Part shown: piece after piece, positions 9,444 to 55,711 of the stretch | Layout of the letters: each line of letters starts with the position of its first letter | Numbering within the stretch: the first letter of the stretch is position 1 | IMG/VR virus record: IMGVR_UViG_3300025732_000035 | Location: 9,131-73,130 of that record | Length of the DNA stretch: 64,000 nt | Source of the DNA: a virus | Direction: 5' to 3' (one strand) | The notes under the pieces: generated by a model | Databases searched by the model: none | The model's input: only the letters and a program-made list of their open reading frames with translations | What the model was told of the DNA's origin: nothing | Program-made: the position numbers and the translations under genes

Positions 9444-9755
9444 TCAAGCCCAGGGAAGGCCAGTGCCAGTTTTCGGCTCACGCTGCTGTTCAATTTGCTG
9501 AGCAAGAGCGTCTTCAATTTCGGCAACTTTTTCGTCGCCAAATTTGTCCTTCACCCAGCCGATGACAATTTCGGGGGTGAGCTGAGCATACGGAATGGCT
9601 TCGTCTTCTTCGGGAGCTTCAAGACCAAGACTGCCATAGGCCGAGCTTGCATAAGTGCCATCATCGGCGGAGATCGTATAGTGAACAGTGCCCACGTAAC
9701 CATTTGAAAGCGTGCGGTCCATATTGGCCACCGCCCATTGATAAGTAATTGCCAT
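9444..9755 (-). CDS. Tail-fibre-associated small protein (assembly chaperone-like)
   Basis: IPYAQLTPEIVIGWVK...GLPW pattern typical downstream of fibre genes. Confidence 0.65.
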   Translation of the reverse strand: MAITYQWAVANMDRTLSNGYVGTVHYTISADDGTYASSAYGSLGLEAPEEDEAIPYAQLTPEIVIGWVKDKFGDEKVAEIEDALAQQIEQQREPKTGTGLPWA

Positions 9756-9830
9756 GATTAAAAAGAATGGTCTTTGTTAGTTTAGCAATGAAAAGAAAGG
9801 CGGTTTCTTCGGAAAACAGCCAGAGCTAGT

Positions 9831-9844
9831 AGTGACGTGGACTA
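9831..9844 (-). repeat. Boundary site 1, TAGTCCACGTCACT
   Basis: Its TAG is the stop of ORF 9842..10363. Confidence 0.8.
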
Positions 9845-10363
9845 ACGGGGTTTCCAGCGGACAAGGTTCCGCAAGGTCACAAGTGTGTACCTAGTCCACT
9901 CATCACCAATTGAGCCATCAATGGGGTACAACTTGCTGTACCACCAGGCGTACTGCTCGGGATTGATCTCCTGCAACCGTTCAAGCATTTCTGCGATGTC
10001 AACACAAAGATCGGGGTCAGGCCAAGCTTTGTCGGCTACCTCCATCAGGTGATCAACAAAGCGTTGAAGCTCCTCACGGCTACCGAAGATTTGCTCGTAC
10101 TCACCATCGGAGTCGTTGCACAGCAGGACTTTGCCGTTCTTGGCCCAAGCGTAGTGCTGGTAGATGCCTTCGCTTGGGTCGTAATAAAAATCTGGAAAAT
10201 GATGTGAACTCATCTGCCCAAAACTAAGGAAATTGGCGCGGTAGTCTGTAAGCCATTCTTCGCCCATCAACTCTACCAGCTCTTCGCGGGTCAAGTTGTG
10301 GATCCATTCAAGACAAACTTTGAAACGCCACTCGTTTTCCTCCGGTGTAATGTCGTCAAGCAT
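9842..10363 (-). CDS. Acidic hypothetical protein (cassette cargo)
   Basis: 173-aa ORF bounded by boundary sites 2 and 1. Confidence 0.7.
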   Translation of the reverse strand: MLDDITPEENEWRFKVCLEWIHNLTREELVELMGEEWLTDYRANFLSFGQMSSHHFPDFYYDPSEGIYQHYAWAKNGKVLLCNDSDGEYEQIFGSREELQRFVDHLMEVADKAWPDPDLCVDIAEMLERLQEINPEQYAWWYSKLYPIDGSIGDEWTRYTLVTLRNLVRWKPR

Positions 10364-10366
10364 ACG

Positions 10367-10380
10367 AGTGAAGGGGACTA
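10367..10380 (-). repeat. Boundary site 2, TAGTCCCCTTCACT
   Basis: Ends 3 nt upstream of the ATG at 10363. Confidence 0.8.
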
Positions 10381-10395
10381 CCGAGTCTCATGTAC

Positions 10396-10424
10396 TTGAC
10401 AGGTTAGACCCAATGTGCTATAGT
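10396..10424 (+). promoter_or_regulatory. Near-consensus sigma70 promoter
   Basis: TTGACA-17 bp-TATAGT with an extended -10 TG. Confidence 0.85.
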
Positions 10425-10461
10425 GGTGTTAAGGGGAGAGATCCCCACTGCACCTAGAAAA

Positions 10462-10647
10462 ATGAATTACCGCACAGTTAAGGCTGTTCGAGACGAGCTG
10501 CATCGCCGTGGTGGTTGGCTCGAAACCATCAAAGACACCGAACGACCTGAGTACGCCCCGCATCTTTCTTTTGAGGAGTCGGGATGGATTCATGGGATTT
10601 GGATCAAAGATGAGTTGCTTGCTTGGGCAGTTGAAAACTTGAACTAA
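10462..10647 (+). CDS. 61-aa hypothetical protein, inverted relative to the operon
   Basis: ATG ORF between its own promoter and terminator. Confidence 0.7.
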   Translation: MNYRTVKAVRDELHRRGGWLETIKDTERPEYAPHLSFEESGWIHGIWIKDELLAWAVENLN

Positions 10648-10653
10648 CCACTG

Positions 10654-10677
10654 GCCCGCCTTAGAGCGGGCTTTTTT
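10654..10677 (+). terminator. Rho-independent terminator
   Basis: GCCCGC-CTTAGA-GCGGGC-TTTTTT. Confidence 0.85.
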
Positions 10678-10763
10678 GTGCCGGGGATCCTGCAATACAA
10701 GACCCGCTGGTCGGGGAATACAGGGGGCCTCGCAGTGGCTATCGACCCCCCGGCAACCCTTTT

Positions 10764-10777
10764 AGTGAGTAGGACTA
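10764..10777 (-). repeat. Boundary site 3, TAGTCCTACTCACT
   Basis: Its TAG is the tail fibre stop codon. Confidence 0.8.
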
Positions 10778-12904
10778 CGAGAGCTGGGCTTTAACAGCAG
10801 CCATCTCGGATTCCAGGGTTTCGATACGGAGCTGCGCCTCTTGCAGTGCCTTGATGGCCATCCACATCATCTGCTGTTCTTTGACACCGATGCGCTCTTC
10901 CTGAGCAGGCTGGTCCTCAGTTGCTTCCTTGGCTTCTTGGAAGACGGTAATCACTTCCGGGCAGCTTTCCGCCACCTGCTGGGCAATTACACCCATGCTC
11001 AAGTCGGCTTCGTCTGACTGGTCCTTGTAGCGGAAGTTGACGATTTCCCATTCTTTTAAGCAGTCCCATGTGCCAGCGGCAGGCGCGATGTCCTTTTTGA
11101 CGTTGCGGTCAGAAAGGTTGACGTTATTGGCGCTGTAATTAGCTATGCCACCATTAGACCGAATTGTTGCTCTTTCCGTCGTTGCGCCAACACACTGCAG
11201 AAAAAAGCGCGTACCATCATTTTGATCATTTGCTGTTTCAATGTATAAACCGTATTGCTGACCACTGGCGGCTGTGGACCTTATATATACAGATACGATA
11301 TCATCTGCGTTATTAACAAATTCGTGAAAAGCGGCAGTAGAGTTGATATAACTACCAGTATTTGTAGCCTTAAAGGCACCTCTTTGAGTGATTCTTGCCC
11401 GCTCCGTAGGGCTGCTCGCTCCGTCGGCAGTAGTGGAGAACACTAAGCACGTTGGATGGCTAGTACCAGCGGTCCATGTACCGTCACCGTTCGCAGAGAT
11501 AAATGCGCCAGCGTCGTTAGCAGAATTGGCGAAGCTGATATAGCCAATCGTGCTACCAGCGGATGCAGTAGTTGCGTTCCGCTGGATATTTATTGCTCCA
11601 CCGGCAGCAGTAGTTCCACCTTGGACGATAAATTTAGCCTCGGCAGAACTAGAAGACGTGCCCACTAAAAATCGACCACTTGAATCCCAGCGGCCACGCT
11701 CAGTCCCGTTTGTACCAAACAAGACAGGATGCGCTCCTCGCGCCCATCCCCCATAGACATTGTTAGAGGAATCTTGACCGTATAAAGCACTGCTGGTTTG
11801 CGGGGTATTTCCGTTCCCTGCCATCTCCAGTAGGCAGTTTTGGCCTGAACCATTTGCAACCCAAACATCACCACCAGCGCCATTGCTGACGATGTGTAGC
11901 TTAGTGCTAACTGAAGTAGTGCCAATCCCTACGCGCTGTGACGAGTCAATAGTTACTGCACGTGTGTTTCCATTCGTGGCAAGAATTAGATTTGCTTCTG
12001 CGCGAACAAGCCCATCGGTAGCTGCGGATCCACTAAGCCAACTTGAACCAGCGGTTCCGGTATAAAGAGCTTGAGTGCCTGATTGAAGAAATACCGTGCC
12101 ACCGCCGCCGGCGGTGGTGGTATTGACATAGAGCGGTTGATAAGAGCTACCAACAATATGCAGTTGGCTATTCGCATCTGGGCTAGAAGTCCCCAGACCT
12201 AGAGCACCTGTCGAAGTGAGGCGCATGCGCTCGGCGCCACCTGCGCCAAACTGCATACTTTCAGAGCCAACTGCAGTGAGCACAAGCCTTCCGGCCGCCG
12301 ATCCATGTGACTGGCCAAATGCGAGAATGTTCGCACCTGCACCAGCACCATCTCCACCATCAATCCGGATATAACTAGTTGCAGAAGTTTGAGAAATTTC
12401 ACCAATAGATACTTTAATGTTTCCACTGCTATCAACAAACAACCGCCCAGTGCCATTAGTCGAGATGGCTAATTGGTCTGCGCCGGGTGAATAGAGGCCC
12501 GTATTCGTGTCGCCCGAGAAGTAGAGCCCTGGCGATCCAGCCGAGCCGGCGATGATGCCGAGCGCGCCGGTCATTACGTCGCCGTTGACGTCCACGAACG
12601 TGCCGGATTCGCTGCGCCATGCGCCACCGTCCCACACCTTGAACACATAGGTGTCGCCGGTAGTATCAAGCCATTGCTCACCCTTGGAATTGCCAGCAGT
12701 GCCGCCGCTTGCAGGACTAACATTAGGCGCAGTCGTGCCTACGTGTACAGGCCCCACTTTTACTAAATTGCCATTGCTGTCCTTAAAGAACATGCCAGGG
12801 CTTCCACTTGCATAGTTAATGGCAACTTGCCCATCAACCATGGAAGCAGGATTGGGACGCTTATCCAGCGTCGAGGAACGTAAATGCTGAAGAACGCCAG
12901 CCAT
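10775..12904 (-). CDS. Tail fibre with C-terminal peptidase S74 chaperone domain
   Basis: Repeated ERMR...G.GT.S modules; LSDRNVKKDI, GVIAQQV, terminal coiled coil. Confidence 0.9.
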   Translation of the reverse strand: MAGVLQHLRSSTLDKRPNPASMVDGQVAINYASGSPGMFFKDSNGNLVKVGPVHVGTTAPNVSPASGGTAGNSKGEQWLDTTGDTYVFKVWDGGAWRSESGTFVDVNGDVMTGALGIIAGSAGSPGLYFSGDTNTGLYSPGADQLAISTNGTGRLFVDSSGNIKVSIGEISQTSATSYIRIDGGDGAGAGANILAFGQSHGSAAGRLVLTAVGSESMQFGAGGAERMRLTSTGALGLGTSSPDANSQLHIVGSSYQPLYVNTTTAGGGGTVFLQSGTQALYTGTAGSSWLSGSAATDGLVRAEANLILATNGNTRAVTIDSSQRVGIGTTSVSTKLHIVSNGAGGDVWVANGSGQNCLLEMAGNGNTPQTSSALYGQDSSNNVYGGWARGAHPVLFGTNGTERGRWDSSGRFLVGTSSSSAEAKFIVQGGTTAAGGAINIQRNATTASAGSTIGYISFANSANDAGAFISANGDGTWTAGTSHPTCLVFSTTADGASSPTERARITQRGAFKATNTGSYINSTAAFHEFVNNADDIVSVYIRSTAASGQQYGLYIETANDQNDGTRFFLQCVGATTERATIRSNGGIANYSANNVNLSDRNVKKDIAPAAGTWDCLKEWEIVNFRYKDQSDEADLSMGVIAQQVAESCPEVITVFQEAKEATEDQPAQEERIGVKEQQMMWMAIKALQEAQLRIETLESEMAAVKAQLS

Positions 12905-12977
12905 AATTAAAAGCCTTTCAAAATCAAGAGGACTAATTAGTCTTTCGCAATTCTAAAAGGCTTTTGTTTTTTAATGA

Positions 12978-50650: not shown

Positions 50651-51229
50651 TCAGCTCGCCGGAACGATCAAATCGTTAAGAAAAGCATATGATCCATGCA
50701 GCTCAGAAGCTGCTTTGTTGTAGGCCATCGCGGCCTCTTCTTCGGTGGCAAAAGTACCCAGGTATTTACGCTTTTTCTGCCAATCAATATATGCCATCCA
50801 TGGCTTATTTTCTGAACGCTTATTTCTGCAGACGCCCTTAAATTGACTCGACGTGAGTTGATTCCTCTTAGGGGCATTCGCCCTGTTTTGAGAATCGGAA
50901 ACAAGACGCAAATTCAATGGATTGTGATTGAATTTATTCCCATCAATGTGATCAATTTGATATTCGCTTGGATCAACCTTGTAATGCAAAAAATAAACAA
51001 TGCGGTGGCCAAGAAATAGAACGTCCTTTCCTTCCACTCGAATGCCCACTTGAAAGTAGCCCGTACTGCGACTTCCGCTTGTATCTTGCCATCCAGCGTG
51101 GTCACCAGGCTTGAGCTTTCTGCTGCGAGGATTGCGCCAAGAAAGCCAGCTTGGACTTTCGGGGTCAAGAATCAACAAATCCTCCAAGAGCTGCAATGAA
51201 GGAAGAGAACGATGTGCTAGCTTTGCCAT
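50651..51229 (-). CDS. HNH-AP2 homing endonuclease
   Basis: HRIVY, IDHIDGNKFNH..NLR, SSQFKGV, YLGTFATEEEAAMAYN. Confidence 0.9.
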   Translation of the reverse strand: MAKLAHRSLPSLQLLEDLLILDPESPSWLSWRNPRSRKLKPGDHAGWQDTSGSRSTGYFQVGIRVEGKDVLFLGHRIVYFLHYKVDPSEYQIDHIDGNKFNHNPLNLRLVSDSQNRANAPKRNQLTSSQFKGVCRNKRSENKPWMAYIDWQKKRKYLGTFATEEEAAMAYNKAASELHGSYAFLNDLIVPAS

Positions 51230-51304
51230 GTCATCTAGTAGTAGTAGGTGGCCAGAAGCGGAACGCGCCAACGTTGCCGCTTCACAATATTTTAGCAAAT
51301 GGCT

Positions 51305-54950: not shown

Positions 54951-55043
54951 AAACAAGCCTTTTTTCAGCCGTGCCCTAAACAAGCCAAAACCCAGCCGTG
55001 CCCAATTTTTCAAAACAAGCCTTTTTCTATCCGTGTCCAAATT
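54951..55043 (+). repeat. Three imperfect direct repeats AAACAAGCC...CCGTGYCC
   Basis: Direct reading of the sequence. Confidence 0.75.
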
Positions 55044-55626
55044 TGCTATACCACTTTGCCCGGATCCTGCCACGAAGATTAAGGTCTTGATGGCGCCAAC
55101 TATCAAAACGACAAATCTTTTTAATAGTTCCATGCGAAACATTTAATTCTTTTGCAATGGAATAAGCGCTTTCACCATATTTCACGCGCAAACGAACTGC
55201 TGTAATTTGCCGCGATGTAAATTTAGCATTTTTCTTTGCCTCTCCACAGGCTTGCAGTCCATTATCCCAAGCGTGCTTTGCGTTGTCGCTGTTTGTGGTC
55301 CATTCAAGATTAGAAATATGATTATTAAGTTTATTTCCATCTTTATGATTTACACACCATTTATCGCCACCAGACCCTATTTCCCCGGGCGCAGGAGGCA
55401 TCCAAGTAAGACGCATTAAATAATGAATAGTACGAGGTTGTTTCTTCTTGTTATTCTCCGTGATTAGCACCCATGGATAATCTTTGCTTCCGCTGGTTTG
55501 CGGACTCATGAGTCTTGATTTGGCAAGACTCCACACCTCGCCCTTCTCATTGATGAAATAGCGTCCGTTATACCCAGGGATCTCCTTAAACCCTGTAGGC
55601 ACGCTGCTATGCTTATTTGTAGCCAT
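55027..55626 (-). CDS. NUMOD4-HNH homing endonuclease
   Basis: FKEIPGYNGRYFINEKGEV, VNHKDGNKLNNHISNLEWTT..NAKHA. Confidence 0.9.
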   Translation of the reverse strand: MATNKHSSVPTGFKEIPGYNGRYFINEKGEVWSLAKSRLMSPQTSGSKDYPWVLITENNKKKQPRTIHYLMRLTWMPPAPGEIGSGGDKWCVNHKDGNKLNNHISNLEWTTNSDNAKHAWDNGLQACGEAKKNAKFTSRQITAVRLRVKYGESAYSIAKELNVSHGTIKKICRFDSWRHQDLNLRGRIRAKWYSKFGHG

Positions 55627-55711
55627 GGCCAAACTCCTCTTGGTAGTGGTTAGAAACGTCACGAGATGCCAGTCTCGCGTCGTTTCGCCATGCTAACAAT
55701 TATTTCAAGCT

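What the first reader, a model, noticed from the sequence alone, without database searches (positions are those of the whole stretch)
9831..10777. Integron-like gene-cassette array bounded by 14-bp TAGTCCnnnTCACT sites
Seen (minus strand): three direct copies, TAGTCCtacTCACT (10764-10777), TAGTCCcctTCACT (10367-10380) and TAGTCCacgTCACT (9831-9844), with 11 of 14 bases invariant. Two supply the TAG stop of the preceding gene; the third ends 3 nt before an ATG. They cut the DNA between the tail fibre and its usual partner gene into two units (383 and 522 bp between sites), each holding one unrelated non-structural gene. The site has inverted arms (AGT...ACT) around a variable core. Known: this geometry recalls tyrosine-recombinase core sites, and stop codons within the site are typical of integron cassettes, but attC sites are far longer. 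Inference: an undescribed minimal-site cassette capture or shuffling system. No recombinase is visible in this window. An RNA-processing or translational signal is an alternative.
Basis: partly seen in the sequence, partly recalled or inferred. Interest (0 to 1): 0.88.

Follow-up and report, generated by a model that had tools for sequence, protein, structure and literature searches.

The report
Cassette junction motif behind cyanophage tail fibre
A short DNA signal repeated three times behind the tail-fibre gene of this freshwater cyanobacterial virus marks the exact joints where small accessory genes are swapped in and out among many related viruses, but nothing shows that a dedicated integron-type enzyme does the swapping.

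Summary
TAGTCCNNNTCACT occurs exactly three times in the window and in the whole 73-kb phage record. All three copies are co-oriented and lie behind the tail-fibre gene (0.01 expected by chance).

The phage is a relative of Synechococcus siphovirus S-CBS4. The motif is a widespread junction element in uncultured viral contigs and in five of ten cultured Synechococcus phage records examined, both podoviruses and siphoviruses. It starts with the TAG stop of the tail-fibre gene or of a small ORF. It often ends 3 nt before the next ATG, and it brackets at least 15 unrelated small-ORF families.

Homology between relatives starts or stops exactly at the motif. One public contig joins site B to site A and skips one unit exactly.

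This genome has no tyrosine or serine recombinase, and the sites are not attC-like. Many relatives carry an S-LBS1-type integrase directly behind the array, probably as an optional passenger.

Best reading: a conserved linker at which cassettes are exchanged by short-homology recombination, as at T4 PeSLs. The integron reading is partly supported in architecture but not in mechanism.

An earlier report of this scan (e1-5850039) reached the same conclusion on other DNA.

The parts
10775..12904 (-). Tail-fibre gene (709 aa) with a C-terminal Peptidase_S74 chaperone domain. Its TAG stop is the first three bases of site A.
   Evidence: ORF list; PHROG tail-fibre families; Pfam PF13884.
10764..10777 (-). 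Site A, TAGTCCTACTCACT ('TAC type'). This is the usual first site behind tail-fibre genes.
   Evidence: L004 becomes 99.9% identical to the window from the second base of this site onward, although its fibre C-terminus is unrelated. Contigs of runs X6 and X21 break here.
10679..10763 (+). sRNA-Xcc1-like structured element on the opposite strand. It abuts site A.
   Evidence: Rfam RF02221, 42.7 bits (gathering score 53), E 2.4e-5 over 4.2 kb, full model 1-87. The same element lies beside the ORF's homologue in L004 and L061.
10653..10672 (+). Terminator-like hairpin plus T run that closes the 61-aa ORF.
10462..10647 (+). 61-aa ORF of unknown function on the opposite strand. It is the cargo of unit A-B.
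   Evidence: 27 homologues of about 61 aa, all unnamed. No Pfam or PHROG family.
10396..10424 (+). Sigma-70-like promoter (11 of 12 matches, with TG) for the 61-aa ORF.
   Evidence: It is conserved in L061.
10367..10380 (-). Site B, TAGTCCCCTTCACT ('CCT type'). It ends 3 nt before the ATG of the 173-aa ORF. Its TAG closes no gene here.
   Evidence: The same 14-mer occurs in 103 distinct contexts in viral contigs. An X9 contig joins this site to site A.
9842..10363 (-). 173-aa ORF, the cargo of unit B-C. Residues 1-45 are a widespread 46-aa small ORF family. Residues about 51-171 are a separate gene in L049 and L050.
9831..9844 (-). Site C, TAGTCCACGTCACT ('ACG type'). It supplies the TAG stop of the 173-aa ORF and is the usual closing partner of a CCT-type site.
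   Evidence: L008 homology starts at this site. X9 contigs break here.
9791..9821 (-). Terminator-like hairpin plus T run after the last site.
   Evidence: Read by eye. The stem is perfect in relatives L005, L008 and L010. The scan did not list it.
9444..9755 (-). DUF7936 gene, the conserved right-hand neighbour of the slot.
   Evidence: Pfam PF25590, E 4.7e-36. It is shared by cyanopodoviruses and cyanosiphoviruses.

Best explanation
The 14-nt motif is a conserved junction (linker) of a hypervariable slot between the tail-fibre gene and the DUF7936 gene of picocyanobacterial phages. Each unit in the slot is a small accessory gene, or a self-contained moron, bounded by motif copies. The copies differ in their middle and follow an order: TAC or CCT type first, TCACCTTC or ACG type last.

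Shown: the motif is non-random, it is conserved across phage families, and it is the exact point where homology between relatives begins or ends. Left and right modules are combined freely across it.

Inferred: units are gained, lost and replaced by recombination inside the 14-26 nt of shared sequence during co-infection, by the general short-homology recombination of lytic phages and not by a dedicated site-specific enzyme. Recombination between two copies in one genome deletes a unit.

Also inferred: the motif stays conserved because it does a job in expression. It is a G-poor stop-to-start spacer that supplies the upstream TAG and places the next ATG 3 nt behind it.
For: 1. Non-random and local. 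There are 3 copies against 0.01 expected, the only 3 in the genome. Relatives and the T7-like phage S-CBP4 carry 1-3 copies per genome.

2. Breakpoints.
- L004 is 99.9% identical over 4,874 nt starting at site A, behind a fibre C-terminus only 29% identical in protein.
- L008 homology starts at site C.
- L005, L007, L009 and L032 have fibre stop, motif, terminator and DUF7936 with no unit between.
- 64 of 918 HSP endpoints lie within 10 nt of a motif, against 4.4 expected.
- 40 of 60 motif sites carry such an endpoint, against 71 of 459 ordinary ORF ends (odds ratio 10.9).
- 31 of 42 HSPs that start at a motif start at base 0 or -1, and 66 of 70 that end there include the whole motif.

3. Combinatorics. 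The exact CCT-type 14-mer was found in 103 contexts, forming 51 left and 74 right flank clusters. The fibre-end cluster (38 members) is joined to at least 13 recurrent right clusters plus 18 singletons. Six complete 2x2 squares of left-right combinations were seen.

4. Cargo. 29 distinct small ORFs in 15 BLASTP-unrelated families follow motif + 3 nt + ATG. Most end in TAG plus another motif copy.

5. Independent samples. One X9 contig joins 10374 to 10772, skipping 397 nt, which is exactly unit A-B. Contigs of X6, X9 and X21 break at sites A, B and C.

6. No recombinase in the complete genome.

7. Conservation. The motif is identical in five loci whose coding flanks differ at many positions. 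Given only the left 11-mer, the right half is kept in 183, 202 and 210 of 236 contexts.

8. Not a host element. 101 genomes of the family of a Synechococcus MAG held 26 matches, against about 75 for the reversed control. None has the phage middle triplets.
Against: - No crossover was observed directly. Everything rests on comparing sequences.
- Most loci used in the breakpoint statistics were fetched with the motif itself as query, and fibre 3' ends are variable for other reasons. Both would enrich endpoints there.
- No pair of relatives at 80% identity or more on both sides differs by a clean motif-to-motif indel (0 of 13 indels found).
- The X9 joint is one contig at depth 2.6 with only 25 letters on the short side.
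- Fourteen nucleotides is very short for homologous recombination.
- The expression role is untested. In the unbiased scan only 14 of 99 CCT-type copies have ATG at +3, and terminal copies before a terminator are also exact.
- A tyrosine recombinase lies within 650 nt downstream of a motif in 34 of 60 integrase loci. This keeps a site-specific mechanism open.
Confidence: 0.6

Rival explanations
1. Integron-like site-specific system. The S-LBS1-type tyrosine recombinase that sits directly behind such arrays in many relatives recognises the motif and inserts or excises units. This genome's array would be an integrase-less array served in trans during co-infection, comparable to integrase-less attC clusters.
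For: - A PF00589 protein (47.7 bits, cut-off 27.1) lies between the last motif and DUF7936 in 14 of the loci fetched earlier.
- IMG/VR holds 335 stretches that encode it.
- Of 60 integrase loci with at least 650 nt upstream, 34 have a motif (2 mismatches or fewer) on the same strand within 650 nt, against 2 on the opposite strand.
- No integrated copy was found among one genome each of 185,579 species. There were 3 close hits, all short MAG contigs; the two closest also carry DUF7936, one of them vsp419 as well.
- The S-LBS1 paper reports no evidence of lysogeny (PMC6157547, passages read).
- The first and last sites of arrays differ in type.
- One unit here carries an sRNA-Xcc1-like RNA. That RNA family is known from a reverse-oriented Xanthomonas integron cassette (10.1101/2025.06.18.660453, passages read).
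Against: - The integrase is absent from this complete genome.
- No integrase is annotated in the fetched regions of S-CBP1, S-CBP3, S-CBP4 and KBS-S-2A, which carry the motif, and S-CBP3 and KBS-S-2A carry units.
- The integrase gene has a motif only on its left, has its own promoter, and behaves like one more right-hand module.
- The site has a 4-bp dyad around a 7-nt spacer, no covariation and no second arm. It is unlike known core sites or attC.
- 26 of 60 integrase loci show no motif at 2 mismatches or fewer.
- Adjacency is expected anyway if the slot is a hot spot for any cargo.
Confidence: 0.17
2. Purely an expression signal: a translation termination-reinitiation spacer, an RNA-processing site or a protein-binding site at gene ends. 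It would have no special role in recombination. Breakpoints would coincide with it only because it sits at gene boundaries and is the one conserved island there.
For: - The motif begins with the upstream gene's TAG in most family instances.
- The spacer to the next ATG is 3 nt in 29 of 32 small ORFs, although most of these were selected for that spacing.
- The motif is G-poor, and few genes of this phage have a Shine-Dalgarno sequence.
- TAG is the rarest stop codon (4 of 26 ORFs), and 2 of the 4 are motif TAGs.
- The motif is more conserved than the adjacent coding sequence.
Against: - Only 3 of the many gene junctions in this genome have it.
- Exact copies stand before terminators, before a reverse-oriented unit, and where the TAG closes no gene, as at site B.
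- In several loci the gene has its own TAG directly before the motif's TAG.
- Only 14 of 99 unbiased CCT-type copies have ATG at +3.
- Chance coincidence with boundaries does not explain 31 of 42 block starts at base 0 or -1, nor the free left-right combinations.
Confidence: 0.18
3. Phage-type promoter or host regulator site. Its right half recalls, from my memory only, the conserved core of T7-group promoters.
For: The motif occurs in T7-like cyanopodoviruses S-CBP1, S-CBP3 and S-CBP4. With a 3-nt spacer, a T7-like start point would fall on the A of the ATG. That spacing argument is recalled, not tested.
Against: - S-CBP4 has a single exact copy in 44,147 bp.
- Siphoviruses carry the same motif.
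- The motif did not match the sigma-70 scan.
- It is not enriched in host-family genomes: 26 matches against about 75 for the control.
Confidence: 0.03

Closest known systems
PeSLs (promoter-early stem-loops) of T4-type phages (PMC2839356 and PMC4122927; abstracts and outlines read)
   Same: Short conserved intergenic elements are repeated in a hyperplastic region. They flank small, mostly ORFan genes. Insertions, deletions and replacements between relatives map to them. They are proposed to act as points of homologous exchange.
   Different: PeSLs are composite sigma-70-like promoters plus terminator stem-loops with shown regulatory activity, and mini-circles were detected. This motif is 14 nt with no promoter or stem-loop. 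It overlaps the stop codon, is confined to one slot behind the fibre gene with 1-3 copies per genome in most records searched (up to six in the longest chains), and is shared across podoviruses and siphoviruses. No circles were looked for.
Integron cassette arrays (attC, attI, IntI)
   Same: A co-oriented array of small, mostly promoterless cassettes, each bounded by a recombination-associated site. There is presence/absence polymorphism at the sites. One reverse-oriented unit carries an sRNA-Xcc1-like RNA, as does the commonest Xanthomonas integron cassette (10.1101/2025.06.18.660453, passages). A tyrosine recombinase gene lies beside the array in many relatives.
   Different: There is no integrase in this genome. 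The site is 14 nt with a 4-bp dyad, not a 55-141 nt imperfect palindrome (attC sizes recalled). The neighbouring recombinase in relatives is co-oriented and optional, and nothing shows it acts on the sites.
Stoperators of cluster A mycobacteriophages (recalled; no paper read here)
   Same: Asymmetric sites of 13-14 bp, oriented with transcription, at or overlapping stop and start codons in short intergenic gaps.
   Different: Stoperators occur in tens of copies over the whole genome and bind the phage repressor. Here there are 3 local copies, no repressor link, and clear mosaic breakpoints.
Exchange of T-even tail-fibre adhesin segments at conserved motifs (Tetart et al. 1998; seen only as an entry in the reference list of PMC7468147)
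   Same: Short conserved sequences in the fibre locus serve as crossover points for host-range modules.
   Different: Those motifs are coding sequences inside the adhesin gene. Here the motif is non-coding apart from the TAG, and what is swapped is the gene set behind the fibre as well as the fibre end.

Membership tests
Integron | Integron-type tyrosine recombinase (IntI) encoded beside the array | tested here: not met
   No PF00589 match in the whole record, which CheckV rates 100% complete. No homologue of the S-LBS1-type integrase in it. Relatives have a PF00589 gene beside the array; whether it has the IntI-specific insertion was not tested.
Integron | attC sites: long imperfect palindromes with paired R/L boxes at each cassette end | tested here: not met
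   The shared element is 14 nt. The imperfect inverted repeats around sites A and B involve module-specific flanks and are not shared by the sites. The dyad is TAGT/ACTA only, with no covariation at the next pairs.
Integron | Cassettes inserted or excised at the sites, so that relatives differ by whole cassettes | tested here: met
   Empty, one-unit and two-unit forms exist with breakpoints at the motif.
PeSL-type regulatory cassette | Composite of a sigma-70-like early promoter and a terminator stem-loop | tested here: not met
   No promoter-like or terminator-like site coincides with any of the three sites. The terminators lie beside the sites, not in them.
PeSL-type regulatory cassette | Indels and replacements between relatives bounded by the repeated element | tested here: met
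PeSL-type regulatory cassette | Circular excision products | not testable with these tools
   Only assembled contigs of public runs could be laid. One deletion joint was seen and no circle junction.
Tyrosine-recombinase core site | Two inverted binding arms of about 7-11 bp around a 6-8 bp overlap region (recalled) | tested here: not met
   The arms are 4 bp (72% paired at the fourth pair) around 7 nt. The fifth pair is paired in 46% of contexts, against 49% in shuffles.
Rfam RF02221 sRNA-Xcc1 (element at 10679-10763) | Score at or above the family's gathering score | tested here: not met
   42.7 bits against 53, but a full-length match with E 2.4e-5. It is a likely distant relative, not a curated-threshold member.

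The most novel reading that the evidence does not exclude
The motif array together with the S-LBS1-type tyrosine recombinase is a phage-borne, integron-like cassette platform. The 'orphan' integrase, found in the tail-fibre module of hundreds of freshwater cyanophage contigs and never seen as a prophage, would serve cassette capture at the 14-nt sites, not lysogeny. Integrase-less arrays such as this one would be serviced in trans.
Probability: 0.15. Interest if true: 0.9.

Novelty: new variant of a known kind. Interest (0 to 1): 0.64.

Why it matters
Conserved 'linker' sequences at module joints were proposed decades ago as the basis of phage mosaicism (recalled), but few concrete examples exist. 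PeSLs of T4-type phages are the best documented.

Here a minimal 14-nt linker organises a gene-swapping slot next to the host-recognition gene. It is shared by siphoviruses and T7-like podoviruses of the same picocyanobacterial hosts, so it is a candidate route for gene flow between phage families.

It is directly testable. S-CBP1, S-CBP3 and S-CBP4 carry the same site type and infect the same strain, and KBS-S-2A and S-LBS1 carry units or the integrase.

It also gives a handle on at least 15 families of tiny unknown proteins that travel with tail fibres, and on the unexplained integrase of phages that show no lysogeny.

Tried and rejected
- **Chance.** Rejected.
- **Wider degenerate family in this genome.** Rejected. 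There are 16 hits at 2 mismatches or fewer against 9.65 expected. The copy at 12922-12935 is not conserved in L005 or L008. A copy outside the window (genome 7606-7619) closes no ORF.
- **Genome-wide promoter.** Rejected by copy number.
- **Host attB or host regulatory site.** Not found in the 101 host-family genomes searched.
- **Clean motif-to-motif indels** between pairs at least 80% identical on both flanks: 0 of 13 indels found.
- **tRNA genes as att sites.** None in 11 integrase loci or MAG contigs. The window has one tRNA-Leu far away.
- **Suppressor tRNA for TAG read-through.** None.
- **Frame relation.** The downstream ATG lies in the -1 frame of the upstream gene, but no slippery sequence precedes the TAG (by eye).
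- **Function of the cargo.** No usable Pfam, PHROG or Atlas lead for the 61-aa and 173-aa ORFs.
- **DUF7936 as a DNA-binding or annealing protein.** The model has pLDDT 78.7. Foldseek found nothing at E 0.001 or below, with weak Rad52 rows at E about 1. VIA-align's best match is Z 6.0 to LptE-like lipoproteins, which is within the range called common. No support.
- **Dyad or hairpin reading.** No covariation.
- **Literature.** Searches and passages of PMC4646655, PMC7468147 and PMC10579305 gave no description of this motif. Supplements are closed and could hold relevant tables.
- **RNA library.** Contigs of X21 cover the 61-aa ORF and the sRNA-like part. This does not show transcription.
- **Not done.** Context of further homologues of the 61-aa ORF.
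Full report
**What is there.**

The window is bases 9131-73130 of a 73,130-bp IMG/VR virus record that CheckV rates complete. It is a siphovirus. It encodes a tape-measure protein, major head protein, portal and terminase. Its head protein is 86% identical to that of Synechococcus phage S-CBS4. Public runs that hold the stretch are freshwater metagenomes (24 runs of 16 studies).

On the minus strand the order is as follows:
- a 1053-aa fibre gene;
- a 709-aa fibre gene with a Peptidase_S74 chaperone end;
- site A;
- a reverse-oriented unit;
- site B;
- a 173-aa ORF;
- site C;
- a terminator-like hairpin;
- the DUF7936 gene;
- a 419-aa virion protein.

**The observation.**

TAGTCCNNNTCACT has exactly three matches at the stated coordinates, with 0.01 expected by chance. 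These are the only three in the whole genome. Relaxing to two mismatches gives no excess (16 hits against 9.65 expected).

The A-B unit is a self-contained moron on the other strand. It has a promoter-like site (11 of 12 matches), a 61-aa ORF with 27 unnamed homologues, and a terminator. It also has an 85-nt element that matches Rfam sRNA-Xcc1 over its full length at 42.7 bits. That is below the gathering score of 53, with E 2.4e-5. The same ORF-plus-RNA pair, again between two motif copies, lies behind another fibre gene in L061. In L062 and L063 the ORF stands in motif-free contexts.

The 173-aa ORF is a fusion. Its first 45 residues are a widespread 46-aa ORF whose own TAG has gone out of frame. 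The rest is a separate gene in L049 and L050.

**The motif elsewhere.**

Relatives were fetched with the 419-aa protein, so without reference to the motif. They show three states:
- L005, L007, L009 and L032 have fibre stop, TAGTCCACATCGCT, terminator and DUF7936 with nothing between.
- L012, L010, L019 and L008 have variants at the same place.
- L004 has both units behind a different fibre.

Relatives of the 173-aa ORF show the 46-aa ORF preceded by motif + 3 nt + ATG and followed by TAG plus another motif variant.

The middle triplets TAC (12 loci) and CCT (9 loci) stand out. In 18 of these 21 loci the TAG closes an ORF of at least 50 codons, mostly 350-960. That holds for only 3 of the other 59 loci.

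A scan for the exact CCT-type 14-mer gave 99 non-redundant contexts. In 48 the TAG closes an ORF of at least 100 codons. About 38 contexts share a fibre C-terminal coiled-coil end. Only 14 have ATG at +3.

Fifty-two aligned instances show about 2 bits at TAGTC(C) and (T)CACT and little outside. The 3-nt spacer is variable and the first codons of the next ORF are weakly kept. The small ORFs behind the motif fall into 15 BLASTP-unrelated families of 31-173 aa.

Arrays have an order. The first site is TAC type (23 arrays) or CCT type (22). The last is TCACCTTC type (20) or ACG type (9). This is out of 92 chains, which also include chance pairs.

Cultured phages:

| Phage | State behind the fibre gene |
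|---|---|
| S-CBP1, S-CBP4 | empty site |
| S-CBP3 | one 52-aa ORF between motif copies |
| KBS-S-2A | one 54-aa ORF of the commonest family |
| S-LBS1 | motif followed by the integrase |
| S-CBS4 (first 50 kb), S-CRES2, S-H1, S-RIP1, S-CBP2 | no convincing copy |

S-CBP4 has one exact copy in its whole genome, so the motif is not a general promoter. In 101 genomes of the family of a Synechococcus MAG the pattern is no commoner than its reversed control. None of the matches has the phage middle triplets, so it is not a host site.

**Breakpoints.**

The window and L004 are 99.9% identical for 4,874 nt beginning at the second base of site A. Upstream, the fibre C-termini share 29% of residues and no nucleotide match. 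L008 homology begins at site C.

Over 45 motif-bearing loci:
- 64 of 918 distinct blastn block ends lie within 10 nt of a motif, against 4.4 expected.
- 40 of 60 motif sites have such an end, against 71 of 459 ordinary ORF ends on the same strand.
- Blocks that begin at a motif begin at base 0 or -1 in 31 of 42 cases.
- Blocks that end there include the whole motif in 66 of 70 cases.

Flank clustering of 103 CCT-type contexts gives 51 left and 74 right clusters and six complete 2x2 combinations.

Caveats. Many loci were fetched with the motif as query. Fibre ends are variable for their own reasons. No pair that is similar on both sides differs by a clean motif-to-motif indel.

Independent samples agree. 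One X9 contig joins 10374 to 10772 and skips the 397 nt of unit A-B, with six shared letters. It is weak: depth 2.6 and 25 letters on one side. Other X9 contigs stop or start at site C. X6 contigs stop or start at site A. Two contigs of the RNA library X21 carry the A-B unit with unlike sequence beyond both sites.

**Mechanism.**

This genome has no tyrosine or serine recombinase. It has two HNH endonucleases far away. The sites share no attC-like palindrome. Their dyad is four base pairs without covariation. So the integron mechanism is not supported here.

A PF00589 recombinase of the S-LBS1 type nevertheless sits between the last motif and DUF7936 in 14 earlier loci. IMG/VR holds 335 stretches encoding it. 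Of 60 such loci with enough upstream sequence:
- 34 have a motif on the same strand within 650 nt, against 2 on the opposite strand;
- 56 have DUF7936 within 136 nt downstream.

The recombinase gene has its own promoter-like site and no motif on its right. It was not found integrated in any of the species genomes scanned. The S-LBS1 authors found no lysogeny (PMC6157547, passages).

I read the integrase as an optional right-hand module of the slot, and I keep the integrase-driven model as the main novel alternative.

The best-supported model is exchange by short-homology recombination in the shared 14-26 nt, as proposed for PeSLs (PMC2839356 and PMC4122927, abstracts). The motif would be kept by a role at the stop-start junction. 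That role is inferred from the following:
- the motif's TAG is the stop of the upstream gene;
- the spacer to the next ATG is fixed at 3 nt;
- the motif is G-poor;
- TAG is otherwise the rarest stop codon here (4 of 26 ORFs);
- the motif is better conserved than its coding flanks.

**Comparison and novelty.**

The system works like PeSL-mediated modular shuffling, but it fails the PeSL definition because it has no promoter and no stem-loop. It looks like an integron array, but it fails on integrase and attC. I found no description of the motif in print (searches; passages). Supplements were closed.

An earlier report of this scan on another genome (e1-5850039) describes the same hot spot, with the integrase as passenger and PeSLs as closest known. 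I reached the same view from my own calls before reading it. Another report (e1-5411703) notes the same integrase behind an imported fibre gene in a T4-like cyanophage. I did not check that.

**Verdict.**

The feature is real and widespread. I class it as a new variant of linker-mediated modular shuffling. Interest 0.64.

Noticed in passing
window 10679-10763 (+): Full-length but sub-threshold match to Rfam sRNA-Xcc1 (42.7 bits against 53). It is paired with a 61-aa ORF, and the pair recurs in L004 and L061 (Rfam) and, by eye, in L063. In Xanthomonas this RNA travels with symE in a reverse-oriented integron cassette (paper passages). The ORF here is not SymE by Pfam.
   Followed up: partly
window 9842-10363 (-); L049 3974-4495: Neighbouring small ORFs of the slot get fused. 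The 173-aa ORF joins a 46-aa family member to a second gene through a one-base frame change. In L049 that second gene is fused in frame to a member of the commonest small-ORF family.
   Followed up: partly
L281 3090-3941 (S-LBS1) and L294-L372: The S-LBS1-type tyrosine recombinase is common in viral contigs (335 stretches). It is almost always followed by DUF7936 within 136 nt (56 of 60 loci). It was not found as a prophage in one genome each of 185,579 species. Its biological role is open.
   Followed up: partly
window 9756-9790 (-) and relatives: A conserved stretch (taaactaac-n-aagaccatt) lies 12-30 nt before the DUF7936 start. It is present in loci with and without motif or integrase. It may be that gene's own promoter or leader.
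   Followed up: no
window 9444-9755 (-): The DUF7936 model (pLDDT 78.7) is a three-stranded sheet followed by two helices. The best structural match is Z 6.0 to LptE-like lipoproteins, which is not decisive.
   Followed up: partly
window 11400-12470 (-): The 709-aa fibre gene shares 50-nt stretches of 94-96% identity with fibre genes of T7-like cyanopodoviruses S-CBP3, S-CBP4 and S-CBP42. Depth spikes in run X6 at 11368-11474 suggest a widely shared fibre segment.
   Followed up: no
window 50651-51298 (-) and 55027-55662 (-): Two free-standing HNH endonuclease genes lie in the replication/nucleotide-metabolism region. No link to the motif was seen.
   Followed up: no
L011 1205-1215: In L011 the motif behind the fibre stop is cut down to TAGTCC followed directly by A + ATG of a small ORF. 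This is a deletion inside the motif that keeps the downstream ORF.
   Followed up: no
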